A stretch of 64,000 nt of DNA from Amoebophrya sp. A120 (Eukaryota; Protista; Dinoflagellata). The position numbers were made by a program, and so were the translations under genes. Location of the stretch: positions 1,153,809 through 1,217,808 of the forward strand of contig CAJINV010000002.1 of NCBI GenBank assembly GCA_905178155.1. The letters are read 5' to 3'. The notes below the pieces were generated by a model that was not told where the DNA came from, did not search any database, and worked only from the letters and a program-made list of their open reading frames with translations. Shown here piece after piece: positions 8,463-63,238 of this stretch (its first letter is position 1; every line of letters begins with the position of its first letter).

Positions 8463-9142
8463 ACCCCTTCCGCGGCGGCCCCTCGAACAAGTTCCGCGTC
8501 CTTGCCAATGAGTTCTTGCAAAGTACTGGACGAGGACGCGCCATCTTCCAAGGATTGCCCTTCTGGCCCACTGTCTTCAACTGCTGGTTACATTATGAGA
8601 GTGTACAACTCCCCCTTCGTTTTTCCCTTGATTCAAGAGGGCAAAAGTTGTAACCGCAACAGAAGTCATCTCAGCCCTCAGGCCCAACAAAGATGCAGTT
8701 TCTGCACAGACGAAATTAATTGCGCAACCCTGCAGCTTCTGTTTGGGCTGCTGGAACAAGACGAGCCTGCATTTATTATGTGAAAGCAGGGCCATCACAA
8801 GGCCAGAGCTGCAGCTGACATTGCGTTTTTGCATGACAAATGAGGGGAACAAAGGTGGGAGTTGTGCACAACTCTCGTAATGTCGGTCCAGGCGAATTCC
8901 GCTTCTTGAAGAACATTGTCCTGTTGCTGATCATCAACACCTCCCTCCTCATGCGCCGCAATCTTTGTCGTGCTGGTCGAAGCGGCAGCTGCTGCGTGAG
9001 GACCGGCCGGATTTTCGTCTTTCTTCGTCTCCACGACCGGCGGCACATACACAATGCCCTCGCGCGCGTCAGCGCGGAAGTTCGGCCCAAACAAACCGGG
9101 GTCGAGGGCCTGCGCGCCGAACGGAGTCTTTATCCTCTGCAA
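8463..9142 (-). CDS. Hypothetical protein exons (possibly upstream exons of the J-domain gene)
   Basis: ORF 8795-9142 continues in frame after removal of element 8594-8879 plus 5 nt (..AWTD-x-PAVEDSGPEGQSLEDG..). Limits are uncertain. Confidence 0.45.
8594..8879. mobile_element. TIR introner, family E (degenerate)
   Basis: TATGAGAGTGTACAACTCCCCC...GGGAGTTGTGCACAACTCTCGTA; flanks tacat/atgtc. Confidence 0.75.
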
Positions 9143-11454
9143 AAGTTATAATTTCGCTGTCGCTTTTTAAACAGTAGCACTGCTTCTTGGGATCTGCATC
9201 TGTTGTAGTCCTAATCTTATTTGCAATTGCTGATTTTGCATGACAGAATCATCTCAGCATCTTCATCGTCAGGAAGTAAATCTAAAACCAACACAATTCG
9301 ACTAGACATGACGAAAACCATCTTCCACAGCACCCAAATCCATAATTCTTTGGCTTTGCGATAGCTTCTTGTTCATCTAGTTGTACTACCCACGCATTTA
9401 TTTCGAAGAAGTACTACAGCAAAAAATTCTAGCAGTCCTAAACTTTTGCAATTAGATATAATTTGCGCCGTGTTGGGTGCAGAATAGCGTGACGACCGGG
9501 CCAGTGGCCGAAGATCCGTACATCGTCATCCGCTTTTTCTTGCCGGAGGAGGAGGTGGATTTCCGCACGTCGGCGGCAAAATCAAGCACGCGCGGGGGCA
9601 TTTTGTTATTTGTTTCGAAAAAGAGTCGAAGAGATGACCACGCACTTAAAGTAGAGGATGAAAGCGAAGTACTAGAAGAGCACTTCGTCGAAACAAAATT
9701 TTGGTAGAAATAAAGTACAAAAATTTATTTATGGCTGAGAGTAGAACGACGGGCTAGAAATGTTGAACGTTGCTCGTCTATTCGTAAAGTCTTGTGCAGT
9801 ACAGTTGGGGGTGAACTTGAGGTGTGTTTTGTTTTTGAACTTAAGAGAAATGAGTTCTTGTGGTGGGGACCACAAACTTACTTGTAGGTGAGAGGTTGAT
9901 TTGAAAGAGGAAATACAAATAAGACGATGCTGATTTATTTCCTGTTACAAAGTAAAGGTGGAACTCGAATTGCTTGCTGTAAAAATCTATCATGCGGTCC
10001 TCATGGGAATGTACAATTACATGTTCGGGCGGAACGAACGCGAACTGCACGATATCGATATTCAGCAACATCTACTTCCGACGCTTTCTACTTGCATTGT
10101 ACGAGCACCACACGTAGCTGCTGGTGCGACCGAGAGGAAAACTTTCTGTAGCTGCACGAAAGAAGAAATAAGTAAGCGCTCCGACAGAAACTTTGAAAAC
10201 TTTGTGTCGCACGAGACGTCGCAGCAGGTGAGACCGAAATTTTGATTTGTGTTGTACGAGATGCATGTTGACATTTATCAAAGGCGCGCTGAAGCAGCAA
10301 GCTCACACGAGGACCGAACTACGAGTCACTCGAATAAATAACCGAAAGCACAGGACGATAGAAAATACGTTTTGGAATAAATCCGTGTCACGGAAGATTT
10401 TTCCGTGACGAAACAGATGAAGCGAAAATTACGATATCATGCTGGCGTCTTTCATCTCTTACTCGGGCTTTGTGCTGTAGGTACAACCGACGCTAGAAGT
10501 TAGTAAGTATACTTGCTTCCTGGCACACCGATGATGATGATGATCATGGAGGAAATCCTCGGAGACGTTTCGGTTTAAAACCGATGAAGAACGAACACAT
10601 GATTCCTGTACATACGTTGCGTTTAAGAGTTCTTCGTCCGCGCGCTGTGACTCCGCACTGAATCGCAAAGAAAAATCAAATTCTGTTTTTGTTTTTTGTG
10701 AAGCGAGAATTGTTTTTTCCACGATGAGAAAGAAGAACGAGAAACATGATTTCTCATGCGCGAAACGAATTCGAAGCTGAACACTTCTCATGAAAAACGA
10801 GCAGTCTTTTGGGAATCTCAACAAATGAAAACTGAACTTCAATACGGACCTCGTCTGTGTTCTATCGTTCGGTAACATTGGTGGAGAACCTGAATTTACC
10901 CCATTACGCCTACCCAACCTCCGTGGATAGCGGTAGAGTTTTCCCTTTAACAAACTTCGGTCTTGCTTACTATCGTACAGCTTCTAGCTTGTTGAAGAGC
11001 AAGACAATACTATACTTCTTTAACGATCTTCGGTCTATATCACACATAGACGCTTCTTGTTCGTTAAAGAGTTAAAAGTCGCTTCGTCATATATCGCGTC
11101 CTCCTCTTGGGGCGTAGAGTCTTTCTTTTCGTACTAGTAGTTTTTCCAAAAGACTTGGGCCACTCGTTACAAGTTTTTTTATCGTACAAGTCGCAACTAC
11201 ATCGTCATACCTCGGTGGAACATCTTACTGCGTCGTCGTCTCGTTTTTTGTAGCCAAGTTTTTTTGTCGCAACATTTTTTCGAGGGCCAGACGCCTGTTT
11301 TTCCGACAAAAGAAGGTTTAAAAATTAAAAATTAACAACGAAATGCATGCAAATCAATAATTAATTTTCTCATCATCTTCTCATAGACCAAATTTGTATA
11401 TTTTTTTTCGCATCTTGATCTTGTCGTCATTTTTCGCAAGACAAACTCAAAACC

Positions 11455-12075
11455 ATGCCTCCGGAGCCGGGATACACGCGGTTCGTGCCCAACCGCGGCA
11501 TGACCGTCGACGATGCCATGCACATATTTCTCTGTGTGCATGACAAACAACGAGTCTTCATCACCACGCTCAAGCCGGAAGACATTGATGAAGACGCGCC
11601 GGCGGACCTTGAGCTCGAGGACCAGAAGTACTGGATTCGTACCTTCTCCATGTACGACCAGAACTGCATCCCGGATTCCGCGGCGAAAATCTTGGACGAC
11701 CACACTTTTCAGAAACTGGTCGACCTCTTCTACGAGAGCGACGACCACCAACAGTCCGAGCAGGAGCCGACGGAGGAAAACGACAAGGATCCGGACAACG
11801 CGCCGGGAAGCCCACCCGCGGAACAGTACAATACTCCGGGTTCCAGCTCCAACAGCCCACCGGTCTTCCCGCCGGTCGGATCCACGCTCACCTTCGAGCA
11901 GTGCATGCAGATTTGGAAAATGATGAACGGAAACAAACCGCAGGGGAACAACAACAACACGAACGACGACAAGAAGTACGACCACCTCTTCAAAAAACAA
12001 CCGTGTACATACGTTGCGTTTAGTAGTTCTTCGTCCGCGCGCCGGTCTCACGGGACAGCAGCACTAGTGCCTTGA
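11455..12075 (+). CDS. Intronless hypothetical protein (206 aa), possibly TE-derived
   Basis: Coding-like GC3-rich ORF. It is the only convincing plus-strand ORF. A 39-bp repeat occurs upstream (10607-10645) and overlaps its 3' end (12004-12042). Confidence 0.55.
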   Translation: MPPEPGYTRFVPNRGMTVDDAMHIFLCVHDKQRVFITTLKPEDIDEDAPADLELEDQKYWIRTFSMYDQNCIPDSAAKILDDHTFQKLVDLFYESDDHQQSEQEPTEENDKDPDNAPGSPPAEQYNTPGSSSNSPPVFPPVGSTLTFEQCMQIWKMMNGNKPQGNNNNTNDDKKYDHLFKKQPCTYVAFSSSSSARRSHGTAALVP

Positions 12076-12740
12076 TTTCGTGCAATCATATGTAGATTTG
12101 AAAAGGATTTAAGATTTGTCGTAGTTCTAAACAGGGGTCCTGTCTTTTTATCTGGGATTTTACGTTTTTTTTCCCTGACGGGTCGTGGAAATAACCATTG
12201 ACAACCTTATTTGCTTTTCTCATTCCACTCACGTCGCGTAGCAGGGTTTGCTTTTTGCGTTGGTCTTGGTTGTCTATATATTGCTGCTTTCCTGAAAGAG
12301 AAAACTTGGAATTGAGATGAAGCGGGATACTACAGAGCAAACAAAACCGGCGAGAGCGTCAGTTTCCTTAATGAAGCGTCTATTTGACAGACAGACATTT
12401 TATCGGGGTACAGGTGTTGGTGTTTATGTTTTGGGAACAACAAAAACTACTCTTGGTTGAATTTCTATGGTACAAGTGGACAAATTTTGGTGTGCTGATG
12501 CTGAATCGAAGTAATCAAAAGAATAGAATTGTAACTGTAGTACATGTCAAAATAAATACTGTAAAAGCTTAATATCGTAGCATAGTTTAGTGTAATGTTA
12601 AAGTTCAAAGTTTGAGACTGTCCTGCACTTTCGGAAGACTTTTTTTGCGCATCATGTGCTGCTAGTTGTAGTTTTTCGAAGATAAAAGAACCGTGAAATA
12701 GGACTAGAAAATACAAGAAACCTCCTCCACTTTTTGTTCC

Positions 12741-15700
12741 TCACGCCGTGGCTTGCTGCTGCTGTTGTTCCAGCAGTTCCTCCACGCCCTTGTTGCCCCC
12801 AGACGCGGGCGACTTGTACTCACTCAACAGGTTGCTCAGCCGCTCCTTCCCGGCAATCTCGTCTGCCTCCAACGCCTGCATCTCCTTCAATTTCTTGTCC
12901 ATGCCGTAAGTGGGGATCTCGCCCAACAAGGCTTTCATCACCTCATCCAAATCCAGCTCCCCACTGCAGTCCCGGTCCATGTGGAAAAATATGCGCCTTC
13001 GCCTCTTCACCGCGGCGTGCGTAGACGGCCCCGGGGGCCAGTGGATCCCGCCGGCCAGGGCTTGCTGGAATTCCAAAGGCGTCACCTGCCCATCGCCGTT
13101 GGCATCCAAAGCGGAGAAGATGGCGTCGCGAACGGATTGCTCGTTGACAAAGTCGCCGAAATAGGCGCGGAGGTGTTCGCGGAGAGAGATCATCTCTTCC
13201 TCGATAGGAAGGCGCTTTTCGAGGATCACCGCGTCGCGGGTCAGCTGGTTCGCCACTATCATATGTAAAAACGTCCCCACCTCCCCATAGTCAAGTTGGA
13301 ACGTAGCAACACAAGTCCAGAAGTTTTGGGAGCCACGCATGACAAGTTGCAAAGTCGGTAATGTAGTTCATATTAGCAAGGACAGCTGCATCACAAGTCT
13401 ATCTGCTTATCCTGTTTGCAGCATTACAAATGCCAAAACACGACGATTGGAAGCGCCTCCCCTCCCTTGGGGACGCGCATTACAAATATTCCTGCAATTG
13501 CAAATCTGCATGACAGCTCTGGGATGCTGGGGACGTTTTTACACAAGATAGCCACTTCTGGATCCTCCTCGCCGATATCCTTGCCCTTGATGGCACCCAC
13601 GCGGCAAGAAAAGACCTGAAAGTTTATTTTAAAACGCATCGTACTAGTGGAAATCGCATTACAAATTTGCTCGGCATGACAAATAAAATTTGTAATGCGA
13701 ATTTTCCTTTAATAAGAAGATTTGTAAAAATGCATGACCGTGATGACTACTAAGTACGTACCTTCGGATGCTTCGCCCACAAATCTTGCTCCTTGTATCC
13801 GGGCTGTTGTGAGGTTTTGATCCACGCGCCGAAATTATCCGCTGATTTCAAAGTCCACTTGTTCAAATAAACCCTTTCCACGTGCCGTTGCGCATCCGTC
13901 GTCATCTTCTTCCGGCTGGCGTTATCGCGATTGCGGATATGGAAGCGTCAGGTTTGAAATCGTCAAAGTTGAAATAGTTTGTCATGCATAAAGTGCAGCC
14001 CTCAAAGTGCCTGTCTTGCAGAGTAGGCAATTGAGGCAGATTGTAAGCCTATTGAGGGGTAGAAACTGAGCTGCTAAAGTAGCATGACAAAAGGCGTCTT
14101 TCTTACCCAAACAGCATGACAAACTGGATTCCGGCCGTACCTAGATTTGTCATGCGCCACTTGGGAACTGGGTCACAACTTTCATCCATTTTATGCATTA
14201 CAAGTTTTTTCAACTTTGTCGATTTCAATCCTGACACACCCATATCGGAGCAAGTTGTTGTACGCCTGACGCATGGAATACCGCTTTTTTCCGTCCTTCC
14301 CAATAATGTAGCACTCCTCGTCGGTAAAAGTGACTTTGTTAATCCTTTGCATGAAGTCCCGCTCCTTGTGATCGTCCTTGAACTCCCGAACCTTCTCCTG
14401 CACCTCGTAGGGGTCAATTCCCAAAACCTCGGCAAATTCTTCGAACGATAAATCCCCCGACCCATCGGTGTCCAGAATCCGGAGCAAATTCGCCCTCCTC
14501 TCTATCCTGAGCAAAAACGTCCCCACACCAGAGTCAAGATGAGGATTTTGCAACACAAACGTAGAAGTTTTGGGACTCATGCATCACAAGTTCAAGCCCG
14601 TACTGTAGTGCAGGTTAGCAAGGGCTAACGCATCACAAATCCATCTGCTTATCCTGGTTACAGCATTACAAATGCCAAAACACGACTAGAGATTCCGCTC
14701 ATGGAGATGCGCATTACAAATGTGCCTGTCAGTGCAAATCTGCATGACAACTCTGGGGTGGGGACGTTTTTACACATGATACTCTCCGCGTTCAAGTGGG
14801 AATTGGTCGCGTCCGGGTAGTATGCTCTGCAAAAGTATCGTACTCGTAGTTGTAATCGCAATCATGCATTACAAATCTCCCTCTGAAGCCAAATCCGCAT
14901 TACAAATTCCATCTTTCATGCTGAGGGAATTTGTCATGCGATTTATACTAGTACGATGCTTTTGCATTTCATAGGTAGTGCATGCGCTGCAACCCGTGCT
15001 GAAATTCGTCCATGGAAACAGAATTGGACCGGTCGAGATCGTATGCATTACAAATATCCACCCTGGACGATGTCTGGAAGGATGTAAGAACTTGTGATGC
15101 TATATTTGGATACCACAAAGATCTGTATTGCATGAACAGCAAAAGAGGTCCAATGTTTCTTGCCACGGCCACAGGGCATTTCAATTTCTCATGCCGTATA
15201 GGCAACATCAGGAAGACCTCACATCAACATCTGTGGTGCTAGAGCATGCATCACAGACGTCAGGAGGCATGCAAAATGTGCATGACAAACCTTGCATCCT
15301 TCCAGACATGATCCAGGGATATTTGCATTTCATAGATCGAGCTTCAGGTAGAATTTGTACCACCAGCTCGTATCCGGCGCCCCCTCCGCGCCGCGGAGAA
15401 GTTTCCCGAATTTGTGAGCCAACCAGGCGCGGAAGTAGAGGAGTTCGTCCCCATCCGGGACTAGGTTGTACCGCCGCATCGAGTCCTTCACCTGCCCGTC
15501 GAAATACGTCACCCAGTGCACGGTCACATTCGCCCGTTGCTTCGGGGTCAGCCCAGCCACCGGCTGCTTCCAAATTGGCATCCGGCAGGTGTCCTGAAAC
15601 GGCGCATCGAGCCAAATGCAGGCACCGGCGCAGTAGACAATTTGGTTCTGCTATCCCACGAAAAAAGTGTTACAGTTACACATTTGCTGTACCTTCAGCA

Positions 15701-16392
15701 TCACAAGTTTCCCCTGCATGACAGAGAAAACTTGCAATGCAAAGATCATAAGGGAAAACAGGAAGGAAACGAGGCTCCAAAGCATTTCCTGCATGAGAAA
15801 AGTTGTCTGTGTTGCCGGTCTTGCAAGACAATGTGTAACTGTAACACTTTTTTCTTCCCATATCTGCCGGAGGTTCGACCCGGTTAGCAACGAGTGGACG
15901 GAGAGTTCTATCCTGCGCAAAAACGTCCGTACGACCCCATAGTCAAGATCTTGGGAACTTAGCAACACAAATCTGGAAGTTTTGGGAGCTACGCATGACA
16001 AGTTCTTGCAGTCCCTAGTGTGGAAGTGCAGGCTCCGTTCGTAAGGTGGACTATAGCTGCCGCATCACAAATCCATCTGCTCATCCTGTTTCCAGCATTA
16101 CAAATTCCAAAACACGAGGACTACAAATGCTTCTCATGGGGACTCGCATAATTACAAATGTTTCTGTAGATGCAAATCTGCATGACAACTCTGGGGTCGT
16201 GGGGACGATTTTGCTCAGGATAAGTTCCCGCTGCACTTTCAATTCCGGCGCGGTCACGAGGAACGCGGTGCCGACAGCCGGGTCCGGGTCGATTTTCACA
16301 TTTTGCAGTAAGTCGTCAAGGTTTTTCGTCTCGCGGACAAAATTTCCGAAGAACGACTGGTCGTCCCGAGTAATGGACGGAAATTTACCCAT
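12741..16392 (-). CDS. EF-hand calcium-binding protein (~539 aa, 9 exons)
   Basis: Removing 7 TIR elements (+5 nt each) and GT-AG intron 13616-13761 leaves a 1620-nt open frame. EF-hand loops: DLDRSNSVSMDEF (split by an element), DTDGSGDLSFEEF, DANGDGQVTPLEF, DRDCSGELDLDEV. Confidence 0.88.
13257..13550. mobile_element. TIR introner, family F
   Basis: TATCATATGTAAAAACGTCCCCA...TGGGGACGTTTTTACACAAGATA; TSD gccac. Confidence 0.92.
13616..13761 (-). other. GT-AG intron derived from a decayed family-B element
   Basis: AAG|GTACGT...TTTCAG|GTC; interior is colinear with family B (cf. 28877-29021) but the TIR tips are lost. Confidence 0.8.
13938..14244. mobile_element. TIR introner, family D
   Basis: TATGGAAGCGTCAGG..GAAATCG.CAAAGTTGAAA TIR; flanks gcgga/tcgga. 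Confidence 0.92.
14503..14781. mobile_element. TIR introner, family F
   Basis: TATCCTGAGCAAAAACGTCCCCAC TIR; TSD ctctc. Confidence 0.92.
14821..14973. mobile_element. TIR introner, family B
   Basis: TATG...TGCAAAAGTATCGTACT TIR; TSD ggtag. Confidence 0.92.
15042..15334. mobile_element. TIR introner, family C-related
   Basis: TATGCATTACAAATATCC..CCTGGA..ATGTCTGGAAGGATG TIR; TSD gatcg. Confidence 0.92.
15652..15862. mobile_element. TIR introner, family G
   Basis: TAT..GAAAAAAGTGTTACAGTTACACATT TIR; TSD tctgc. Confidence 0.92.
15909..16222. mobile_element. TIR introner, family F
   Basis: TATCCTGCGCAAAAACGTCC..ACGACCCCA TIR; TSD agttc. Confidence 0.92.
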
Positions 16393-17622: not shown

Positions 17623-19342
17623 TCAATGCCAATAAGTTGGCGGCCCCGCATTTTCATCCGGAGTTGTCGTCCAACCATGCTGCAAGCCAATTAGCTCCGG
17701 CCTAGAGCATATGCGAGTGCACAACTCGCCCTCCCTCTCATTTGCGTAGCATGAACAGGAGCAATACAAACATCGGAACCTGTGGAGCATCTGTGGAGCG
17801 TTTGCATGACAAATTCATGCGCGTAAGCAAAAGCAATGTAGTACTGCTTGGGCTTCCGGAATCTGTCATGCAAACAGTACGACAAAGGCAAAGCAGTGCC
17901 AGCGCTTGGATTTGGTAGGTATTTTGCGTGACAAATGAGTGGAACAAGGGAGATGAATTGTGCGCTCTCATAAAACTTTCCCCGCTAATATCCCGACGGC
18001 CGCGGTGGAAGAGGTTGCCCACGATCCCACGTGGTGCCCCACTACCAGTTGCACTACCTGTACCTTCGCGGGCGTTAGTCGTCTCCTGCGCCAGACCACC
18101 TATGGGTTTATCGTCCATCTGCAAATTATTAATCAGCTGGTCGCTATTTGCAATCCTTTCTGCAATACTTTTCCCTAACGCAACCCGGTGCCCTTGTGCG
18201 GCCGCTACTCCCAGAGAAAAGCAGCAACAAATACCGGCTGCTTGCGTCGTCGCGATCTGGCACGGTGCACAGCAAGCGCAGCAGAGGAGCTTGTCTGCGC
18301 CGCAACAAACTGCCGGGACGGTCGGGGCCACGGCGGATGAACTTGTTCCCATCTGGCAGAGCGTCACGCCCAGATGTGGGTTGCAGCAAAACTGCGCACA
18401 AGGCAGACCTGCGGGCCCGAAATTGTTCGCACAGCACGTCGGGTCTGCGGCGGGTAAAACGAAGTTGTAGCACGCACTCTGCAAGGTGTGTCCAGCGGCG
18501 CAATTCGACACCGTGTTGACCCCGCAGAGGACTTTTGATTTTCTCCGCATCTCCCGCTCGTGGCTGTCCAAACCAGGAATGCAAAGGACCTTCACCATCT
18601 ATGGATGTGTCAGGATCGAAATCGGCAAAGTTGAAAGTGAAACAGTGAAACAGTTTGTCATGCATATAATGCAACGTTGAAAAATTTGAATTTGTCTCTA
18701 TTGCGGAGGACGCACACGCAAGGCGGGAGGCGCCAGATTATAGGCCTGCTGAGGGGTAGAAATAGAGCTGCTGAAGTAGCATGACCAAAGGCGTCGTCTT
18801 TACCCAAACAGCATGACAAACTGGATTTAGGCTCTACCTAAATTTGTCATGCGCCACTTGAAATCTGGATCTGGGCTTCATCAACTGGCATCCATTTTAT
18901 GCATGGCAAATCATTTCAACTTACTCTGTCGAAGATTTCGAACCTGACAGATCCATAAGCCCGCCTGTACAGTGCGACACGCGACGTGTTTCGAATGTGA
19001 AGCCACGGATATGATATCCTCGGCGAGGTTATCGCAGCAGTTCTCGCAGCAGGCTCTGAGTCCGTTTTGAAGCAACGTGCGCCTGGATGGTTTATTGCCG
19101 ATAGGCATATCGACAATATCCATATCATGCTGCTGCGGTGGAGCTCCTGTATCGGTAGCGGCGAGAACCGTCGGAACGAAGTGTTCTTGAAGTTCAGAAA
19201 GTCCTCCGAACAGGAAAACTACCGGTAATAGTGTCCCTGCGAAAATGGAGGAGGAGCCGCGACCTCGAAGGGCGGTTGTTGGAGCTGCGCCCACGCTCCT
19301 CGTCCTCTCGAAGCTCTTTCCCGTCATCTTCCGACTCGTCAT
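17623..19342 (-). CDS. Cys-rich protein with N-terminal hydrophobic segment, paralog 1 (~362 aa)
   Basis: ORFs 18911-19354 and 17738-18598 join across elements 18600-18957 and 17710-17972. Cys-dense core (CAQFCCNPHLG...LLCCACCAPCQIATTQAAGICCCFSLG) is near-identical to paralog 2. Confidence 0.75.
17710..17972. mobile_element. TIR introner, family E (shared with paralog 2)
   Basis: TATGCGAGTGCACAACTC...ATTGTGCGCTCTCATA; same position as 22394-22662. Confidence 0.8.
18600..18957. mobile_element. TIR introner, family D (absent from paralog 2)
   Basis: TATGGATGTGTCAGGATCGAAATC...GATTTCGAACCTGACAGATCCATA; no intact TSD. Confidence 0.88.
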
Positions 19343-19870
19343 TTTAAAAATCACGCCGCAGATTATAAATATGCAAAAAACCGCCGCGCGTGGGTAGGAA
19401 TACTTAATTTTGATTTTACACTTTTTAATGTCTACTTCAAGGATAATCGATATCGAAATCGCTTCCCAAAATCGTGGTGCGAAAAATCTCTCACAAAAAT
19501 CCTAGATCTCGCGACGTCAAGCTAAGATTGCGATTATGATTACTTTTACTATGGTGTCGAAAATGAAATCTTACAATTGATAAGTGGTTTTGTTTTTCTT
19601 TTTTTCAAACCCGTAATAGAGTTAGAAGCAAAAAAAAAAAGATAGGATAGAGGCAAGTCAGCGGAAAAGAAGCCGCGGTCTTCCTCTTCAATAAAACTGT
19701 GTACAATAAAATATAAATAAGCCCGATATTACGATAGAAGCACGCAGCGTCTCCTCGATGAAGCCGTTTATTTTTTCTCAGTTGTGCACTTACTAGATGA
19801 TGATGATCGGGGCCTACTGGTCGGTTTATTTGGGATGATCTTCTTGCTGGGAACCATAGTATCGATCCAG

Positions 19871-22312: not shown

Positions 22313-23735
22313 TCAATGACAATAGGTCGTCGGCTCCTCATCTTCCGAAGTCGTCCAACCATGCTTCAAGCCAACTAGCTCCGGCATAGAACTTATGAGA
22401 GTGCACAACTCGCCCTCCCTCTCGTTTGCATGGCATGAGTGACCAGCAATACAAATGCCGGCACCTGTGGACGTGGTCGTGGAGCACCTGTGGAGCCTGT
22501 GCATGACAAGTTCATGCGCGTAATGTAGTAGTAGTGCTGCTACTGCTTGGGCTTCCGAAATTTATTGTCATTCAAACAGTTCAACAAAGCAGTAGCAGCG
22601 CTTGGATTTGGTAGGTGTTTTGCATGACAGATGAGGGGGAGGGAAGGTTGCGCGCTCTCATAAAACTTTCCTCGCTACCCCCACGGCTGCGGCGGAACAG
22701 GTTGCCCGCAAATCTCCGTGCCCCCCCTCGAGCACTACTTGCACCCCCGTCGCCACTGCTCGTCTCGTGCGCCGGACCTATGGGCTTATCATCCGTCTGC
22801 AAATGCATCAGCGGGTGAGACCCCGGCTCACAGGACCCGTCCGCAGCTTGAATCAAAAATGGCAGCCACAATTCATTGCGATTTCTCACGTCCACCGCAC
22901 CGTTGTTTCCCATGCTTTCTGCAACACTTTTCCCGAACGCAACCCGGTGCCCTTGTGCGGCCGCTACTCCCAGCGAAAAGCAGCAACAAATACCGGCTGC
23001 TTGCGTCGTCGCGATCTGGCAAGGTGCACAGCAAGCGCAGCAGAGGAGCTTGTCTGCCCCACAGCAGACTGCCGGGACGGTCGGGGCCACGGCGGATGAA
23101 CTTCCCATCTGGCTAAGCGTCACCCCCAGATGCGGGTTGCAGCAAAACTGCGCACAAGGCATACCTGCGGGCCCGACGTTGCTAGCACAGCACGGCTCTG
23201 CGGCAGGTAAAGCGCAGTTGTAACACGCGCACTGCAAGGTTTGTCCAGCGGCGCAACTCGCCATGCTGACCCCGCAGAGGGCTCCGTTCCGCATCTTCCG
23301 CTCGTGGTTGTTCACGCCAGGATTGCAAACTACGTCCACCATCTCCAAAAACGCGTAAAGACAGCAGCCCGCCTGTGCACAGTGACACACGGTGCGAGCA
23401 TCCTCGGCGAGGTCCTCGCAGCAGGCCCCCGAGCGGTTGCGCAGCGCGGACGGTGTGGCGCCGCTGAGTCCCCGTTGGAGCAACGTGGATGGTGGTTTGC
23501 CGATAGGCTTATCCATATCCTCCTGCAGTGGAGCTCCTGTATAGGAGGTAGCGGCGAGAACCCCCGTGGGAAGTAAGTATTGTTGAAGTTGAAGTTGAGC
23601 AAGTCCTCCCAGCAGGAAAACTACCGGTAATAGTGTCCCTGCGAAAATGGAAGAGGAGGCGCGAGGACCTCGAAGGTTTCTTGGAGCCCCCACGCTGTTC
23701 TCGAAGCTCCTTCCGCTCATCTTCCGATTCGTCAT
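22313..23735 (-). CDS. Cys-rich protein, paralog 2 (~382 aa)
   Basis: ORF 22581-23747 joins the 3' part of 22313-22504 after removing 22394-22662 plus 5 nt (...SEES-x-MPELVGLKHGWTTS...). Confidence 0.78.
22394..22662. mobile_element. TIR introner, family E
   Basis: TATGAGAGTGCACAACTCGCCCTCCC TIR; flanks gaact/aaact. Confidence 0.85.
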
Positions 23736-43671: not shown

Positions 43672-43790
43672 ATCGCACTCGTATAAATGCATGACAAATT
43701 CCGCTAGCATGAGGGTAATGCAGATTTACCTTGAGAAAAAAATCTGTAATGCATGATTGCAATACGAGTACGATACTTTTGCACAGGATA
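43672..43790. mobile_element. Family B element truncated at its left end
   Basis: Intact right end ...CGATACTTTTGCACAGGATA; the left TIR lacks its first ~15 bp and abuts the displaced exon. Confidence 0.8.
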
Positions 43791-54700: not shown

Positions 54701-57700
54701 CGTATTAAATTGCAACACAAAAAATTTTTACCTCAGCACGACAAACGGAATTTGTCATGCTGCTTTAACTTGAAAATGAAATTTGTCTTGCATGACGGCG
54801 ATTAGTACGAGTTGTACGATGCTTTTGCACAGGATAACAATTGCGTCATCGCGATTTCCAACCGTTTGTTGGATTTTTTCAACTCCTGCTTATACGCAGT
54901 GTATATCAACTGCAAATATGTCTGGGTCTGCAAGGCTGCAACTTGTAATGCTGTCTCTGGATTCTGAAAAAAGTTGCATTGCATGACCAGCAAAAGGACT
55001 CCAGTTTGTGCTACGCGGAGAAAACCTCTCTCATGCGGTAGAGGTATCAGTCACAAAGCGCTCCAAAATAAAATCTGTGATGCTACGGCATGCATCACAG
55101 AGATAGATTGGTCATGGAAAATATGCATGACAAACAAGGTCATGGCGCGGGGACAGAGTCCCCGCGCTGCGACCTTGCGGCGAAGAAGGGCCACCCGCGG
55201 TGGCTTTTCTTGCCCATGATGCGGCAGGTTTTTTTTTTGCATGCGACAGAACGGGGTGGCTTGGCGCTCGTGGTGCCGGCGCCCCCCCTGGAAAAATGCG
55301 CCTTTTTCTGCGCCCCTGGGCGGGGCGCCCCCCCCAAAGGACTACCCACGACCAACCGAGGGCGCGGCCGTCCGGGTGGTTGTTCTCCCGAACCAGGGCG
55401 CGCGGGCCTGTTTCTGCGCCCCTGGGCGGGGCGCCCCCCCAAAGGACTACCCAAGACCAACCGGGCGGGGCGCGGCCTTACCAGGGAGCGTGGACCTGTT
55501 TCTGCGCCCCTGGGCGGGGCGCCCCCCCCAAAGGACTACCCACGACCAACCGAGGGCGCGGTCGTCCTGGAGGCTGTTCTCCCGAACCAGGGCGCGCGGG
55601 CCTGTCTCTGCGCCCCTGGCTTGGCGGGGCGCCCCCCCCCCCCAAAGGACTACCCAAGCCCAACCGGGGGCGCGGCCTTACCAGGGCGCGTGGACCTGTT
55701 TCTATCTGCGCCCCTGGGCGCGGCGCCCCCCCCCCCAAAGGACCACCCACGACCAACCGAGGGCGCGGCCTTCCTGGAGCCTGTTCTCCCGAACCAGGGT
55801 GGGCGCGCGGACCTGTTTCTGCGCCCCTGGGCGGGGCGCCCCCCCCAAAGGACTACCCACGACCAACCGAGGGCGCGGCCTTCCTGGAGCCTGTTCTCCC
55901 GAACCAGGGTGGGCGCGCGGACCTGTTTCTGCGCCCCTGGGCGGGGCGCCCCCCCCAAAGGACTACCCACGACCAACCGAGGGCGCGGCCTTCCTGGAGC
56001 CTGTTCTCCCGAACCAGGGGGGGCGCGCGGACCTGCTTCTGCGCCCCTGGGCGGGGCGCCCCCCCCAAAGGACTACCCACGACCATGCGAGGTTGGCGCG
56101 GCCACCTTCCTGGAGCCTGTTCTCCCGAACCAGGGCGCGCAGACCTGTTTCTGCGCCCCTGGGCGGGGCGCCCCCCCAACAGGACTACCCACGACCAAGT
56201 GAGGGGGGGCGCGGCCTTCCTGGGGGCTGTTAGTTCGCTTCGCACTCCCGAATCAGGCCGAGCGGACCTGTTTCTGCGCCCCTGGGCGGGGCGCCCCCCC
56301 CCCCAATGAATAGGCAGCCAACCTTTGGCCCCCGGGGTCGGGCCTGACTCTTGAAAAGCGGCCCCCGGGGTCGGGTATTCCTTTTCCGAAGTCAGGTGGG
56401 GGGCATGTTTTGAGTTGTGCAGGAGGTTTTTGCCGATTCGGGTCGTGTTTGATACCCCGGAACAGGGGTCGGAACATACCCCGGAACATACCCCAGAACA
56501 CACCCCCAAACATACCCCAGACCATACCCCGGAACTCACTTTCCGACAGTCAGGCTCGGGGTCGAAGCTGACTCGCGAAAAGTGATGTCCGGGGTCGGGC
56601 GTCACTTTTCCAGAGTCAGGTGTGGGGTATGTTTTGGGGGGTGCATGAGGAAATGGCCGTGTTAGCTCGTGATTGATACCCCGGAACATGGGTCGGAACA
56701 TACCCCGGAACACCCCCCGAAAACTCATTTTTGGGCAGTTGCTGCAGTTTAAATAGTAATCTGGAAATCTTCCAGACCCAGACAAATTTGCAATGCATAG
56801 TGTACAGCTCGTGGAGGGTGAAATGCGTGTTCGTCGCGTCCTTGTCCAGCTGAAGCCAGGAGTCTTTGAAAAGATTCAGGATTTGCTCCAACTGTTGCAC
56901 CAACAGATTGATTTTCAAGTCGTGCTGCTCGGATGGTGTAGTTGCTGATGTTGGGGATTGTAGCCTGGTTGTGCTTATTGTTCCTGGCGAAGATCCACGA
57001 AGATGCTCCATCCCTGTGGTTGAAATCTGCCTCAGCAAATCCAGTATCTGCATCGACTCGTCTAACTTTGGTAAAACCACATCAATCATCCTCGACGTCT
57101 CCGCTTGCGGCACGGATTGGTCGTCTTGTTCGATCCCGCCAGAAATCGTTCCCTTCTGCAGCATCTGCTGGTGTTTGTTCAGAACGTGGTTTAGGTGGAT
57201 GACGGATTTGCGGGACAGCGCGTTCGGAGGAATTTTCAATGGGTGCTCTACTTCTTGGCCGGGTGGAGGTGCGGCTCGTGGTTGTTGTCCTTGTCCTTGT
57301 CCTGCGGAAGTAGTTGTAGATGGTGCCGCTTTGGTTTTGGACGCCGGCTGCTTCTGCTGAACAAACTTGTTCCCGCCTGGTGCAGCTGGCGAAGGGGTCG
57401 TGATCATCTTGAATTGATACTCCACAGGAGCACTACTAGAACCTCCGGGACTCGAACCTCCGCTGGAAATAAGCCCACTTTTTTTCGACCTCGACGGCGG
57501 CTCCGCAAAAAACGCAAACGGCCTGGTATTCGATGACAAAACTGGACTCACACCCACTCCAGAAAACTGCGCTTCCTTCAAATCCCGGATGAATTTCATG
57601 GTTTCCTCCTCGGAAAACCGGGCGGATCGGTGCATTTCCCCCATCTTCACCAATTCGTGTTGGTGGTCGGGGATGGGGTGGAAGCTGGAAAGATATGCAT

Positions 57701-60700
57701 TGCAAAAGTATGATCGTACTGGTACTAATTGCAGCCCTGCATTACAAATCTCTTTCCTAAGGGAAATCCGCATTACAAAGTCCGTTTGTCATGGTCATGA
57801 AGCAGGTCCGTCAGGAAATTTGTCATGCGATTTGTAGTACTAGTACGCTGCTTTTGCAATGCATAAGAGGGAGTGGTTATCGGAGGAAGAAGACGATCTT
57901 TCGAAATCCTTCGCCAAATCTCGATCCAAAGCCTCCTGCATCTCGCGCTCGCTGCGGAAGAGGAATGCTTGGTTGTTATTCGCGTTGTAAAAATTTGGCG
58001 GCTTCGGTTTATTGTTCTTTGCAGGACCACCTGCTCCTGTGCTGGTTCTACTGATGCGGTGGCCCCGGCCTGCTGCAGCTTTTGCGGTAGACGAAGACGA
58101 TGAAGATCCACCACGACTTGCTTTCCCGTAGTTCACAATCATGTGGTCGTTTACTTCTCCCTGACTCATCCCTTCCCCGAAGGATATGTCGTCAATCATC
58201 TCTGCTTCGGGAATCGGGTTCATCAAGACCGATTTTTTCGCATCGCCATCCCGCAGCTTCACGGCCTGTTTAAACGCAAGAGAACTCGGGTCCGCGTCTA
58301 ACTCATTTGCCAAACAACTATCAAGGTCGTCCCCTTCATCGTCTTCAATGTCGTCAACTAGGAAATCATCTAAGAATTCCGCGTTGTTACCGATGAAGTT
58401 ATCCAAATTCAACATCGTGTTCGCCGGGTCCGCTATCTTCAACTTCTTGTTTAGTCGGAGTTTCTTCTTCCCATCCGCTGTCAACATGCTGTTCGCCACG
58501 TCCAAATCCCAATCGAGCAAATGCCGTGCGTCCTCGTGGTTCCCGAAGCTGGGGAGGTTTTCGATGTCGAGGTCGAGTCTCCTTTGCCGTGTTCTTTCGT
58601 GTTTGTCTAGCAGTTATGCATTGCAAAAGTATCCTACGCTACCGTAACCGTACTAGTAGCGATTGCATTACAGGTTCCTACTTGTACTTGTCGAGCAGGA
58701 GAAATCGAGTTTGTTATGCAGAGTCAGGTCGAGCACAAGATCTGTCATGCATGACTGCAATCAGACAGAAGTACGAGCACGATATTACTTTTGCAGAGCT
58801 TAGGAGTGTGCTCGGGTCCGCGTGTTCTTCCTCCATCAATTTTCTTTCCTCAATTTCCTTCTTCACTTTCCTCACTGCCTGTTTCTGGATAATCTTCATC
58901 TGCACCACGGAGTCCTCCGTATCCGCAACAGAAATTTCGTCATTTGTCTCTCCATCGTCGATAGAATTATTATTCATGGCGTGGTCGCTGCGGATAAACT
59001 TCTGCTTCTTCAGCTCTTTTATCTTCTTCTCAATCTTCTCACTGACGATGAGAATGAAGTTCTCGTGCTTCATCTTCTCTAGTTTTCTCCTCTCCTTGAA
59101 GGACTCTTCTTGCTTTATTTTTTCGCTGGTGGATTTATTTTGCTGGTTTTTCCTCTCCTCCTCTGCTTCTGGGTGATCCATATCAAATGCAAAAATGTCT
59201 GGGAGATTGATTGTGATGCAGTTTTTCCATGGCCCATGATGTTTGGAATGCAGGACCTACCATGACAGATTCTGTGCGATCTCTCTCAACATGCCTATCC
59301 TGCATGAGAAACTCCCTCCCGCCGACTTGGTCAAAACTGGACGACTTTTGGCAATCATGCAGCGCAGATTTTTGCATGCTTCAGATTTAGCATGACAAGC
59401 TGGACTCTTCCAGACCCAGACACTTTTGCATTTGATAATCCAGCGCGGAAAACAAAACTCCGTGGGGATTTTCCGCTGTGGGTTTTGTCAAGTACTCCTC
59501 TCCCGCAACGTGGGTTTTGAACTTGATCTTCTCCAGGATTTTCTCGTCTTCCAACTCGTGGATCCGGTCGATTAGAATCCTCAACAGCTCCTTTTTCTTC
59601 AAATTTCCAACTAATAATTTCTCGCTGTACTCGTTGTCCACAGCCAGTTCCGGAAACCCCTTGTTCACGATAGATTGTAAATGCATCTCCAATATGAACT
59701 GCAAAAGTATCGTAGTCGTATAAATGCATTACAAATTGCCTCAGCATGAGAAATAAAATCGAGTAGGCCAATTTCCCAACGACCCTTCTGTGCTATGATT
59801 GCAATACAAGAAAAAAAAAATGGCTGTCGAATCTGGAGCGAGTGCTGAATTGTCGCCCTGCATCGTGGCACGCCCCCGGGTCATTAGAACTCCCACGGCT
59901 GCAGTGTAGAGCTCCTCGCTGTTCGCTGGATAAGCGGCTGCTCCAGTTGGGCCCCCTGGCACCCTAGTCCTACTGCGGCCGCGCCCCCGCCTGCTGCGCG
60001 CAGTCAGGGTCGCAGAGAATCGGCCTAATGCCCACTCGTTGCTATGCGTACTATGCGTGCTATGCTTGCTATGTTTGCTGTGTCGGGGGTGCCACAGCAC
60101 ACATAGCACACAATTTTGGCCCGCGCACGGTGCTGTGCGTGCTATGCGTGCTGTGCGTGCTATGCGTGCTATCGTTGCTGTGGGCCGCTCGCTAATGCGA
60201 CCACAGCAACGAGTGGCTCGGCCCTGCACCCCCCAGCAACGGCTCCAGGGAATGCCGCCGGAGCGCTGGGCCAAGTGCGAATGGTGTGGCGCGGGCCGCC
60301 GCAACGCGGCCGCCAACGGAAATTCCTAGCGCGCCTGCCTCTGGTGGTGGGCGGCTTTGCTTCTGCTTACCATCCGAATCGCCCGGCACAATCTGCGCCG
60401 GCTCTTTTTTCTTTTTGTGAATGCGATCATAGTGATTTAGGGTCGTTGGGAATTGACCTACATAAATAAAATTTGTAATGCGGATTTACCTTAAAAAAAA
60501 GACTTCTAATGCATGATCGCAATACGAGTACGATACTTTTGCACGGGATATCCAACTCCGTCACCCGCGCCATGAGCGCCAAATACGTATGGCGTTCTCA
60601 GACGTTACATTCTCAACTGTTACATGATTTGTCATGCCAAATTACAAGCAGAGTCGACGCGATCAAGCTGCTTCGCATGACAAATTCTAGGAAAGCCAAA

Positions 60701-63238
60701 TAGGGTGAGAATCTGTGGCAAATCTGTGATGCGGGACGTGCAAGGTCACCCCTTTCACTTTTGCCCTTCTTGCATCACAGATTCTAATTCATGTAACAGT
60801 TGGGAATGTAACAGTTGAGAGCGCCATAATACGTCGTTTGCGTTTCGAACGGGTAGCGTAAGAAATTCTCCGACAGACACCGCTGGAAAAACAACTTATT
60901 CGAACTGGCCTTGTCCGCGTGCAGGAGCTCCAGTTTCTGCTCCAGATGGGAAACGTGGGTGACTAAATCCCTTTGTCGGTTCTTGAACTTCTGCTCAAAA
61001 TAGGCCTGCATCCCGTGGTACTCCGTTTGAAACAAGTCGACTTTTTGATACAAAACTTGCGACGCTTTCGTCAAATGCTTCATCAAGGTCTTCTGCGACT
61101 CGAGGGAAGGGAGTAAGACTTTCTCCTTCGCGGTTAACTTCTCGTCGATCAGGTCCCGCAAGTCTTCGATCAGCAACAGGTGCTCGTCCCGAAAATGGAA
61201 AACCGAAGCGATCTCCGCTTCTGCCTGTTCTAGTTGTTTCTTCTCCTGCTTTTTTCTCTCGGTTGTTGTAGTATCCTGGCCATCTTCTCCGTCGTCGTCG
61301 AAAAACTGGTCGTTCAACTGCTGCATCTTCTGCTTCACGTAGTCGAGCACTTTTTGCAGTTTCTGGAAAAGCAGCTCGTAATTCTCGACCACCTGTTTCT
61401 TCATTTCGTCCAAAGACTGCATCCGAGCGTAGCGATTGACGTAGTCAGAGTTATTATTTGCGTCCTCCGACTGAGGATCCGGCTGTGTATCTTGTGGCGT
61501 GTCTTTTTTGTCCAGAAAATCGATGAATCTGAACTCTTTTTCCACATCCATTAAGTCCTGCGCTATTGGGAGCAACGCGAGGTGCTCTGCATGTAGCTCC
61601 CTATCCTGTGCAAAAGTATCGCACTCGTACTAATTGCATTTATGCATTACAAATCTTTTTCTTAAGCTAAATCAGCATTACAAATTTTATTTGTCATGCT
61701 GAGGAAATTTGTGATGCACTCATACGAGTAGGAGTACGATACTTTTGCAAACCATACTCCCTGACTTCTCTCGACTTCTGCAAGTACTGCCGGTTATCCT
61801 TTATCGGGTGCGGCCCGACCCTCTGTCGATCGAACTCGGAATAAGAATCCCGGAGCGCGGACTGCCATTGGTCAGTCAAATTCCCTTCCAAGGTGGCGAG
61901 GACGGCGTCGACCTGAGTTTCAAAAATTGGACAAGCATGTCGTTCTTTGTCATGCAGCAGCAGCTATGCAGTAACACTAACAACAAATACACGCATGGTT
62001 TCTGTTTGAATCTTTGTCATGCGGAACACGGAATAAAAGTAAAACATAATAAACGATTCTTACGTACGTATTCAGTACCTTCTCCTGCATCAGATCGTGG
62101 ATTTCATTAATCCGCATCTCCACTGCCTTTTCCCGCTGCAGAATCGAGTCCTTTTATCAAATGTAAAACTGTCTGGGTCTGAAAGAGTCATGCTGTTTTT
62201 GCATGACACAGAAGGTTTTGCATGGAAGCTCTAGCGTCACAGGTTTCGAGAAGCTTCCGCAATGCCGAGCCCGCATGAGAAATCCCCCATGTTGGTGACA
62301 GCAAGTGGGCAGCTTTTGCTACCTATGCATGAGAGATTTTTCTGTGTCGTAAAATGCGCATCACAAGTTCGGATCCTTCCAGACCCAGACGCTTTTGCAT
62401 TTGATACCTTTGTCGCCCCGACAATGTCCTCGGACACGAAAACTTGTTCCAGGTCTGAGAAAACCTTCCGTACGTAACTCCGGATTTCGTTCAACACAGG
62501 ACTGCTACTCGCTGGGATTTTTGATTTGGCAAACAATTCTTCGGCGTGGTCGTCTCTTTCCTGAACTTCATTGTCCAATTCCTCATACCAATGCTTCAGC
62601 TTCTCCGTCACTTCATACAGCTGCTCGATTTCTCTTTCGTGCTTCACTTGCAAGTCCAGCCGTTTTTTGTTCTCCTGCTTCTCGATTTGGTCGACAAAAT
62701 TCTCCGTTTTCTGTAGCAGCTTTGTGCAGGTTTGCAGGATGTTCGTGTGGTCCGTGGTGATCGGGATCTTTGCGCCACTGTTGAAAGGCTGTTGTCCGGA
62801 CGTTGCGCCGGCCTGCTTCCCGCCTTTGATATTACTGCTTCCTCCAAAGGCACGCGAAGAGGAGGATGTGCCAGCTTGTCCACCGGTGCTGTTTCTGGTG
62901 CTGGTCCGCGTTTTCCTTTCCATCTCCAGCAACTGATCTTCTTCCTGTTTCCTCTTTTCCAAAATCGTCCTGCAGCGGTTCAAGTCCGACCGGAGCTGCT
63001 CGAAGGCAGTTTTCTCCTCCTGTTGGCCGGGATTGAGCAAATCGTGCAGCATGTTCTCTCTCTGCGTTGGCTTGATCCGGGCAGTAGTACCGTCGAACGC
63101 TTTTTCTTTCTGCTGGAGTAGCCTTTCCTGGTCCTCGATTTTCTGCCTTTTTTGGATTCGGTTGAGAAGACGGCTCTTGGCCTCGGCGTGGAGGGGGTTG
63201 GGAGGGGGAGGAGCTCCCGGGGCTGGTGACGAGGACAT
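48780..63238 (-). CDS. Very large coiled-coil/low-complexity protein (~3067 aa, 14 exons)
   Basis: All junctions are in frame after removing 12 TIR elements (+5 nt) and GT-AG intron 61913-62078, giving 9204 nt from MSSSPAPG to KQMKKK*. No domain recognised. Confidence 0.8.
50658..50877. mobile_element. TIR introner, family E
   Basis: Perfect TIR TATGACAGTGCACAACTCCCCCTCCCCCT; TSD gcggt. Confidence 0.95.
50923..51244. mobile_element. TIR introner, family H
   Basis: TATTGA.A.GAAAAATCCC.CCTCCCCATATC.AAA.G TIR; TSD cggtg. Confidence 0.93.
53861..54166. mobile_element. TIR introner, family H-related
   Basis: TATTACA.TGAAAA.TGCC.CC.ACCCC TIR; TSD catca. Confidence 0.92.
54675..54836. mobile_element. 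TIR introner, family B
   Basis: Family B TIR; flanks acagt/acaat. Confidence 0.9.
54904..56799. mobile_element. Family C introner expanded to 1.9 kb by a nested GC-rich insertion
   Basis: Family C TIRs and TSD gtgta; removal fuses HELYT-AYKQEL; foreign DNA at ~55135-56760. Confidence 0.88.
55305..56305. repeat. GC-rich minisatellite, ~110-bp unit
   Basis: ACCTG(T/C)TTCTGCGCCCCTGGGCGGGGCGCCCCCCCC.AAGGACTACCCACGACC recurs at 55811, 55921, 56031 and ~56143, with variants; followed by 12-bp CATACCCCGGAA repeats (56450-56530, 56676-56720). Confidence 0.92.
57694..57865. mobile_element. TIR introner, family B
   Basis: TATGCATTGCAAAAG TIR; flanks aaaga/agagg. Removal plus 5 nt keeps the frame; removal using the apparent 3-bp repeat does not. 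Confidence 0.88.
58615..58802. mobile_element. TIR introner, family B (degenerate)
   Basis: TA.GC..TGCAAAAGTA TIR; flanks gcagt/ggagt. Confidence 0.85.
59181..59437. mobile_element. TIR introner, family C
   Basis: TATCAAATGCAAAA.TGTCTGGG TIR; TSD atcca. Confidence 0.92.
59693..60550. mobile_element. Family B introner carrying a nested transposon
   Basis: Family B TIRs, TSD tccaa; removal fuses VTELE-MHLQ. Confidence 0.9.
59760..60463. mobile_element. Nested ~700-bp TIR element with 9-bp duplication (Mutator-like MITE)
   Basis: TIR GTAGGCCAATTTCCCAACGACCC / GGGTCGTTGGGAATTGACCTAC, extending imperfectly for ~55 bp; AAATAAAAT duplicated at 59751-59759 and 60464-60472. Confidence 0.8.
60588..60828. 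mobile_element. TIR introner, family A
   Basis: TATGGCG.TCTCA...GTTACATTC.CAACTGTTACATGA TIR; TSD atacg. Confidence 0.93.
61602..61756. mobile_element. TIR introner, family B
   Basis: Family B TIR; TSD ctccc. Confidence 0.92.
62155..62406. mobile_element. TIR introner, family C; GT-AG compatible
   Basis: Family C TIR; TSD ccttt (aaagg on the sense strand). Confidence 0.93.

What the first reader, a model, noticed from the sequence alone, without database searches (positions are those of the whole stretch)
8594..62406. A fixed splice register N|NTA...TANNNN|N unifies TIR introns and GT-AG introns
Seen: five of six GT-AG introns begin GTA, and all six sit between xxAGG pentamers. 27163-27325 reads aaagg-TA...TA-tcagg, the same geometry as a TIR element with TA retained at both ends. 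Two intact elements whose TSD happens to be xxAGG (36792-37007 gaagg; 62155-62406 aaagg) are GT-AG when cut 1 nt before the first TA and 4 nt after the last TA. At 8594-8879, only registers keeping at least 4 nt of the upstream pentamer avoid a TAA stop, though that gene model is weaker. Inference: the element's TA supplies +2/+3 of the 5' splice site, while intron base +1 and the 3' dinucleotide are free (AT-AG, CT-AC, TT-AC, GT-GA, CT-GG). This would point to a relaxed spliceosome rather than a separate excision enzyme. Caveat: AG|GTA and AG|G are also ordinary splice consensus.
Basis: partly seen in the sequence, partly recalled or inferred. Interest (0 to 1): 0.88.

Follow-up and report, generated by a model that had tools for sequence, protein, structure and literature searches.

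The report
Hairpin-measured splice rule in parasite introns
In the marine parasite Amoebophrya, transposon-derived introns that lack the usual GT-AG ends fit a cut at one fixed distance from the base of their end-to-end inverted repeat wherever the junction could be read, which likely means that a hairpin tells a relaxed splicing machine where to cut and would settle intron borders that were published as unknown.

Summary
The window is Amoebophrya sp. A120. Its TAT...ATA inverted-repeat elements with 5-nt duplications are the published introner elements; that paper left the splice border unknown. The proposed register (cut 1 nt before the first TA, 4 nt after the last) holds up. All 8 mismatched-flank elements with a readable junction are compatible with it, and it is the only register they share. 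Five come from spliced contigs and three from annotated proteins; only 9131 and 8594 fix it alone. Six more remain unread and 35892 gave no usable junction. In 148 further elements intron base +1 and the last two bases show no significant G or AG preference. The 'unifies GT-AG introns' claim is only half right: 8 of 8 plain GT-AG introns start GTA, but 2 of 8 have the 3' TA and 5 of 8 the xxAGG pair. A relaxed spliceosome guided by the hairpin is my best reading (0.55) but is untested; a structure-specific nuclease plus ligase remains open. The scan earlier noted similar hairpin introns in two other genomes, not this register.

The parts
9127..9459 (-).
   Evidence: X1 contig piece starts at 9460, the place predicted only by this register; bin depth 82.4 = 334 of 667 nt; annotated protein P0121 has the residue of this register only; X5 unspliced across it
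8590..8880 (-). TT-GT intron = element 8594-8879, flanks differ at 5 of 5; fixes the register alone
   Evidence: annotated protein P0121 reads TDKP, the residues of this register only; exon sum equals X1 contig length 2019; no direct read-level joint seen
13934..14245 (-). AT-CG intron = element 13938-14244
   Evidence: X1 joint 13933 to 14246, skips 312; excludes keeping all 5 upstream nt
17706..17973 (-). TT-CT intron = element 17710-17972
   Evidence: X4 contig piece ends at 17705, fits keeping 3 or 4 nt; other side not displayed; the annotated protein P0123 reads through it unspliced
18596..18958 (-). TT-TG intron = element 18600-18957, no duplication left; paralogue has 22 more nt here
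   Evidence: annotated protein P0123 fits keeping 3 or 4 nt; paralogue comparison
22390..22663 (-). TT-TT intron = element 22394-22662 (same insertion as 17710 in the paralogous gene)
   Evidence: X4 piece ends at 22389; P0122 fits; excludes keeping 5 nt
25034..25228 (-). CT-GA intron = eroded element 25038-25227 in the TTLL9 gene
   Evidence: X4 piece ends at 25032; P0001 fits; excludes keeping 0-1 nt
7676..8010 (-). AT-TC intron = eroded element 7680-8009 with unlike flanks
   Evidence: gap in annotated protein P0121 is exactly 7676-8010; element found independently by the finder; fits keeping 3 or 4 nt (read by hand)
12747..16391 (-). Gene with 7 element introns and 1 GT-AG intron (13253-13551, 13616-13761, 13934-14245, 14499-14782, 14817-14974, 15038-15335, 15648-15863, 15905-16223); outer coordinates approximate
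   Evidence: 7 joints listed in X1, each element skip = element + 5; model length 2889 = contig length
24726..27916 (-). TTLL9 tubulin polyglutamylase gene with 5 element introns and 2 GT-AG introns
   Evidence: model at this register equals P0001, 591 aa; length 2030 = X4 contig
27163..27325 (-). GT-AG intron that also reads N TA...TA NNNN, no hairpin left
6930..7246 (-). GT-AG intron that also reads N TA...TA NNNN with unlike flanks, no hairpin in the fold
13616..13761 (-). GT-AG intron derived from an element body; GTA aligns to an internal element position; no 3' TA
   Evidence: joint in X1; 86% over 100 nt to an element in L044; alignment
36788..37008 (-). Intact element with xxAGG duplication, GT-AG at the register
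62151..62407 (-). Intact element with xxAGG duplication, GT-AG at the register
   Evidence: reading frame only
35888..36170 (-). Predicted GT-CC intron = element 35892-36169; register not established
   Evidence: frame opens with element + 5 removed; annotated P0124 uses the same donor but an acceptor at 35667
57690..57866 (-). Predicted TT-TT intron = element 57694-57865; register untested (all registers synonymous)
58611..58803 (-). Predicted CT-TG intron = element 58615-58802; register untested (all registers synonymous)
761..933 (-). Predicted CT-TA intron = element 765-932; register untested

Best explanation
Amoebophrya A120's inverted-repeat transposon introns fit removal from 1 base before the element's first TA to 4 bases after its last TA at every junction that could be read, and the cut is likely measured from the base of a predicted end-to-end hairpin by a relaxed major spliceosome. 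Shown: the elements, the 5-nt duplication, removal of element + 5 nt from RNA contigs, compatibility of 8 of 8 readable junctions with this register, and no significant G or AG preference at +1 and -2/-1. Predicted: pairing of +2 with -5 at the stem base. Inferred: the element's TA puts U and A at +2/+3, the same letters that all 8 plain GT-AG introns carry; the 3' arm would cover the donor much as U1 snRNA does (U1 RNA was not detected in this organism, PMC7789003), and the acceptor would be fixed by distance from the 3' arm rather than by AG. Because the cut falls inside the duplicated 5 nt, a fresh insertion anywhere in a gene would be removed without changing the mRNA.
For:: observed joint or piece ends 9460, 13933/14246, 17705, 22389, 25032 match this register; 9460 matches it alone; annotated proteins give this register alone at 8594 and 9131, and 3-or-4 at 18600 and 7680. 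Chance that all fit a register named in advance: 0.0017 (7 elements, paralogue and GT-AG case dropped), 0.03 for the 4 independent RNA-only cases. 18600 has no duplication left yet 1+4 flanking nt are removed, so the repeat is not what is measured. Fold pairs +2 with -5 in 6 of 6 such elements folded, in 0 of 3 GT-AG introns. 148 oriented elements with perfect duplication: G at +1 50 of 148 (flank 0.297, p=0.16), AG at -2/-1 14 of 148 (0.065, p=0.10). Published Table S4: all 9 commonest A120 non-canonical classes are NT-NN, all 9 in A25 are TT-NN, and A25 repeats start TTA. +2 T changed in 1 of 259 elements against 6 for its partner -5 A (p=0.125); 3 of the 4 elements with a changed 5' TA read GC or GTG at +1 onward. 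83 of 89 spliceosome proteins reported present.
Against: No lariat, snRNA or Prp8 data. Only 2 of 8 junctions fix the register alone, and 3 of 8 rest on annotation that derives from the same kind of RNA data. Contigs drop rare junctions, so leakiness is unmeasured. P0123 leaves 17710 unspliced and P0124 uses another acceptor at 35892. TA at +2/+3 is not absolute: elements starting TG or TT interrupt frames that need their removal (L004, L024, L046). 5' versus 3' TA changes 4 versus 8, p=0.39, so no significant donor-side asymmetry. G+1 and AG are central to the second step in known spliceosomes (recalled), and here neither is favoured. An A/T-in-the-intronic-copy signal seen in the window (7 of 8) did not replicate outside (17 of 31). 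Euglenid hairpin introns leave as circles, which is read as non-spliceosomal (PMC11282704 section 6).
Confidence: 0.55

Rival explanations
1. Same fixed register, but a separate structure-specific nuclease makes a staggered cut at the stem base (1 nt 5', 4 nt 3') and an RNA ligase joins the exons; T+2/A+3 is only the transposon end and matches the GTA donor by coincidence.
For: Both ends are conserved almost symmetrically; no G+1 or AG preference and no drift toward AG in the intronic copy (AG in 1 of 25 intronic versus 5 of 25 exonic copies); U1 snRNA not detected; euglenid and diplonemid precedent discussed in PMC12621601 and PMC11282704.
Against: Of six possible registers the one used places T and A exactly on the spliceosomal +2/+3, and the A25 data point the same way with another element end; elements with eroded stems (8-11 of 20 pairs: 7680, 25038, 26058, 9131) are still removed at element + 5; an annotated TT-GG intron keeps the 5' TA with no stem (5795-6111).
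Confidence: 0.27
2. The register is only the commonest of several; splicing slips within the duplicated pentamer and selection keeps elements whose slips are harmless.
For: Mismatches at pentamer position 5 fall on third codon positions in 8 of 11 cases (null 0.30, p=0.005 uncorrected, post hoc; versus positions 1-4 p=0.08), as if both copies were sometimes coding; the source paper calls the sites variable; contigs hide minor forms.
Against: No readable junction contradicts the register (8 of 8); aligner ambiguity inside perfect duplications explains apparent variability.
Confidence: 0.13
3. The match is an artefact of my boundary calls and of annotation; GTA and AG/G are just ordinary splice consensus.
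For: True for the GT-AG side: 3' TA in only 2 of 8.
Confidence: 0.05

Closest known systems
Introner elements / non-canonical introns of Amoebophrya A120 and A25 (Farhat et al. 2021, PMC7789003; read: abstract, sections 10-12 and 16, passages of methods, supplement legends and part 3 of 5; figures not seen)
   Same: Same organism and same elements: repeats starting TAT, 3-5 nt direct repeats over the borders, hairpin, about 240 nt, no transposase inside.
   Different: The paper reports 'no clear splicing signature', splice sites 'variable' relative to the hairpin and the border 'unknown'. The fixed N-TA...TA-NNNN register is the addition here.
Non-conventional introns of euglenids and hemistasiid diplonemids (PMC11282704 section 6; PMC11170887 passages; PMC12621601 abstract and discussion)
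   Same: No GT-AG, ends paired by inverted repeats at a fixed offset from the cuts (+4..+6 with -8..-6 in euglenids), duplication-like repeats, MITE origin proposed.
   Different: Offset here is +2 with -5; +2/+3 coincide with the spliceosomal donor; euglenid introns are reported to leave as circles, the product here is unknown.
Fritillaria borealis MITE-derived non-canonical introns (seen only through the review PMC11282704; original not read)
   Same: TIR and TSD transposon introns removed by an adapted U2 spliceosome.
   Different: There the ends have a consensus (AG-AC, AG-AT) and an exonic TAC; here the outer bases come from a random target site and are free.
TSD/TIR introners that carry or co-opt splice sites (Gozashti et al. 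2022, PMC9860276, passages; 2025, PMC12130899, passages)
   Same: DNA-transposon introners whose splice sites fall inside the duplication so that the mRNA is unchanged.
   Different: Those recruit GT/GC and AG from element or target; these need neither.

Membership tests
Amoebophrya A120 introner elements | Host genome is Amoebophrya A120 | tested here: met
   window exons 100% identical to proteins named A120
Amoebophrya A120 introner elements | Terminal inverted repeats starting TAT, with direct repeats of 3-5 nt | tested here: met
Amoebophrya A120 introner elements | Removed from RNA, present in DNA | tested here: met
   X1 and X4 skip them, X5 does not; X1/X4 are RNA by the tool's guess only
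Amoebophrya A120 introner elements | Repeated in families across the genome | tested here: met
   window elements match outside loci at 76-94% over 250-320 nt
Major (U2-type) spliceosomal intron | GT (or GC) donor and AG acceptor | tested here: not met
   2 of 42 window elements are GT-AG at the register; +1 and -2/-1 free
Major (U2-type) spliceosomal intron | U at +2 and A/G at +3 | tested here: met
   T+2 in 258 of 259, A or G at +3 in 258 of 259; partly built into the finder's requirement of at most 2 changes in the six end letters
Major (U2-type) spliceosomal intron | Branch-point motif near the 3' end | tested here: inconclusive
   the repeated internal motif GCATNACA lies in both orientations (48 sense, 70 antisense in 41 elements) and is absent in sense from several spliced elements, so it is not a required branch site; terminal A at -7 changed in 1 of 259
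Major (U2-type) spliceosomal intron | Lariat product; dependence on U2/U5/U6 and Prp8 | not testable with these tools
   no genome held; no snRNA in the window; no raw reads of this strain covered the genes (X9)
Euglenid-type non-conventional intron | Ends paired in a stable stem at fixed offset | tested here: met
   fold pairs +2 with -5 in 6 of 6; predicted structure only, offset differs
Euglenid-type non-conventional intron | CAG at +4..+6 pairing CTG at -8..-6 | tested here: not met
   ends are TAT/ATA
Euglenid-type non-conventional intron | Excised as full-length circles | not testable with these tools
   needs RNA chemistry or raw reads

The most novel reading that the evidence does not exclude
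Amoebophrya has a major spliceosome that has given up G+1, the AG acceptor and U1 snRNA for most of its introns: the transposon's 3' arm acts as a built-in U1 mimic over a U+2/A+3 donor, one of its terminal adenosines (-7 or -5) is the branch nucleotide, and the acceptor is counted out 4 nt past the hairpin. Any 5-nt-duplicating MITE ending in TA would then be a perfect intron on arrival, which explains the invasion.
Probability: 0.3. Interest if true: 0.9.

Novelty: new variant of a known kind. Interest (0 to 1): 0.62.

Why it matters
The elements are known, but their splice border was left open in print, and about 65% of RNA-supported A120 introns were filed under dozens of end classes with no rule (PMC7789003 Table S4). 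One register would collapse those classes to N-TA...TA-NNNN, correct the gene models, and turn the open question of how they are spliced into two simple tests (lariat or not; spliceosome-dependent or not). If the spliceosome does it, this is a natural case where the two most conserved intron letters of the second step are dispensable.

Tried and rejected
No whole genome is held, so no genome-wide count and no look at snRNAs or Prp8; Rfam found nothing in the window. RNA evidence is therefore one 20-kb stretch, with 15 of 674 joints and 24 pieces displayed. A depth mismatch in bin 8401-9067 (85.9) first suggested a shifted acceptor at 8594; the annotated protein and the exact length sum 2019 speak against the shift, and repeat copies also lie in that bin; the excess depth itself was not decomposed. 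My first boundary for the eroded element near 26100 was 54 nt short; the TTLL9 protein and contig length corrected it to 26058-26215. Candidate GT-AG intron 8119-8420 was replaced by the annotated 8119-8464, and candidate 7785-7843 was dropped because it lies inside 7676-8010. Protein-level tests are blind at 13938, 26292, 28877, 54675, 57694, 58615 (synonymous). DNA-only register tests in outside loci were uninformative: no stop codons under any register in 43 mismatched elements, codon-model preference mixed, A/T bias 17 of 31. A first orientation method kept only 82 of 306 elements and was replaced by one that kept 191 of 306; 115 unoriented elements were dropped, and 60 of 319. GCATNACA as branch point rejected.
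Full report
Identity and setting. An exon of the window is 100% identical to a protein named Amoebophrya sp. A120, a TTLL9 tubulin polyglutamylase; two further exons hit only A120 proteins. All intron-bearing gene models I built are on the minus strand. The window holds 42 hand-curated elements that begin TAT and end ATA (a few with one change), plus 26058-26215 and 7680-8009 found later; 27 of the 42 have a perfect 5-nt flanking duplication and 15 do not. These match the A120 introner elements of Farhat et al. 2021 (PMC7789003), which says of their ends 'no clear splicing signature', 'variable' relative to the hairpin, border 'unknown'.

Removal length. In the one stretch that was laid (8401-28400), contigs of runs X1 and X4 skip the elements while X5 runs through 8594, 9131, 25038 and 27163 unspliced (X1 and X4 are RNA only by the tool's guess, and the skips are what shows it). 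Each of the 6 element joints listed for X1 skips element + 5 nt. Three contig lengths equal my models to the base: 2889, 2030 and 2019 nt. Removing element + 5 opens a 3067-residue frame across 12 elements and one GT-AG intron between 48786 and 63239.

Register. One search lists the joint that each k predicts. Observed: piece start 9460 (k=4 only; element 9131-9458, new here; the bin depth 82.4 equals 334 of 667 nt); joint 13933 to 14246 (k 0-4); piece end 17705 (k 3-4); 22389 (k 0-4); 25032 (k 2-5). For all but 13938 only one side of the joint was displayed. Annotated A120 proteins add 8594 (k=4 only), 9131 again (k=4 only), 18600 (k 3-4), 22394 (k 0-4), and a gap of exactly 7676-8010 around the eroded element 7680-8009 (k 3-4). 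So 8 of 8 readable junctions contain k=4 and share no other value. With independent uniform registers the chance is 0.0017 for 7 elements (paralogue 22394 dropped, 8594 limited to its 2 stop-free values) and 0.03 for the 4 RNA-only cases. Against: annotation is second-hand RNA evidence; P0123 leaves 17710 in; P0124 uses the predicted donor of 35892 but an acceptor 220 nt further on, across a tandem repeat; 229, 765, 26292, 28877, 54675, 57694, 58615 are unread; contigs cannot show minor junctions.

What is measured. At 18600 the duplication is gone (the paralogous gene has 22 more nt at the empty site), yet 363 = 1 + 358 + 4 nt are removed, so the cut follows the element ends and not the repeat. 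Minimum-energy folds pair +2 with -5 in 6 of 6 mismatched-flank elements folded and in 0 of 3 GT-AG introns.

Freedom of the outer bases. One pattern scan gave 169 loci (338,560 nt, contigs JACKZZ01..., organism not named, same element families at 76-94% identity). A finder that ignores flank identity found 306 distinct elements, 230 with a perfect 5-nt duplication, 1 in 60 shuffled loci. 191 of 306 could be oriented, and 48 of 48 loci with two or more agreed in strand. Among 148 with perfect duplication, +1 is G in 50 (flank 0.297, p=0.16) and -2/-1 is AG in 14 (flank 0.065, p=0.10). Where positions 3-4 differ, AG is in the intronic copy in 1 of 25 and in the exonic copy in 5 of 25, so there is no drift toward an AG acceptor. 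With the first three letters of each end left free, 259 oriented elements show changes at +2: 1, +3: 3, +4: 4, -5: 6 (one probably a false call), -6: 2, -7: 1; 5' versus 3' TA p=0.39. Elements that start TG or TT interrupt long frames that need their removal, so A+3 is not absolute. No RNA was seen for these loci.

Outside support. Table S4 of the paper lists nine commonest non-canonical classes for each strain: all nine in A120 have T at +2, all nine in A25 are TT-NN, and A25 repeats start TTA. My inference is that both strains put T and A at +2/+3; each class is only 2-5% and the authors drew no such conclusion in the text I read.

GT-AG introns. I placed 8 without a recognisable repeat: 528-695 and 61913-62078 (frame only), 13616-13761 and 27163-27325 (RNA), 6930-7246, 7377-7567, 8119-8464, 25413-25591 (annotation plus length sums). 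All 8 begin GTA; 2 have TA at -6/-5 (p=0.09); 5 have xxAGG on both sides. 13616-13761 is an old element (86% over 100 nt) whose GTA aligns to an internal element position. The relative P0002 reads into what looks like an intron at the 25413 position and runs straight through the 27163 position, which fits 25413 being old and 27163 a later gain; whether P0002's contig is genomic was not checked. So the two classes share the donor's +2/+3, which is also ordinary consensus (recalled), and not the 3' geometry.

Mechanism. I commit to a relaxed major spliceosome guided by the hairpin (0.55): the register lands T and A on the spliceosomal +2/+3, eroded stems are still spliced, 83 of 89 spliceosome proteins are reported while U1 snRNA was not detected, and PMC11170887 notes that structure at the SL-RNA donor can stand in for U1 pairing. 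A staggered-cut nuclease plus ligase (0.27) fits the symmetric ends and the indifference to G+1 and AG. A leaky register (0.13) has one hint, 8 of 11 position-5 mismatches on third codon positions. None of these steps was tested biochemically.

Literature. Eight searches returned no paper whose listing or passages state this register. Seen: PMC7789003 as listed above, without its figures 3, S19-S23, which show logos and examples and may already display the offset; PMC12130899, PMC9860276, PMC12005148, PMC11170887 passages; PMC11282704 section 6; PMC12621601 abstract and discussion; bioRxiv 2022.06.08.495308 one reference line. Roy et al. 2023 and Henriet et al. 2019 were not read. Two earlier scan notes describe hairpin introns in other genomes; I did not check them.

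Verdict. Real feature in a known system; the register is probably right (about 0.85) and appears new; the unification is overstated; the enzyme is open. Interest 0.62.

Noticed in passing
window 5795-6111 (-): Annotated TT-GG intron with TA at +2/+3 but no 3' TA and no stem; the X1 contig's length sum ends exactly at its border (6112).
   Followed up: partly
window 54904-56799, 59693-60550, 39974-40983, 1731-3471: Long elements (0.9-1.9 kb) with perfect duplications, apparently holding inserts; the first three behave as introns by frame or annotation, the last was not examined.
   Followed up: partly
loci L001-L169: Intron phase at this register is 66/37/45 for phases 0/1/2 among 148 elements (p=0.011) although the target shows no base preference; unexplained.
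   Followed up: partly
window elements: Internal motif GCATNACA occurs 118 times in 41 elements, 11 times in 10 other introns and 13 times in 49 kb of other sequence, in both orientations; possibly a transposase-binding subterminal repeat.
   Followed up: partly
window 43660-43790: Truncated element with only its right end, next to a copy of the segment near 41000-41300, at the end of a third paralogue of the genes at 28777-33692 and 35219-41303.
   Followed up: no
window 17300-19350 and 21980-23740: Tandem paralogous cysteine-rich genes (56% identity) share the 17710/22394 insertion; only the first has the 18600 element.
   Followed up: yes
L016:607-850, L063:400-663: Elements whose upstream pentamer ends AGG while the downstream copy has lost the AG, that is a chance GT-AG intron that did not keep its acceptor.
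   Followed up: no
window 21860-22040: High-copy transcribed repeat: the only place where raw-read run X9 lay.
   Followed up: no
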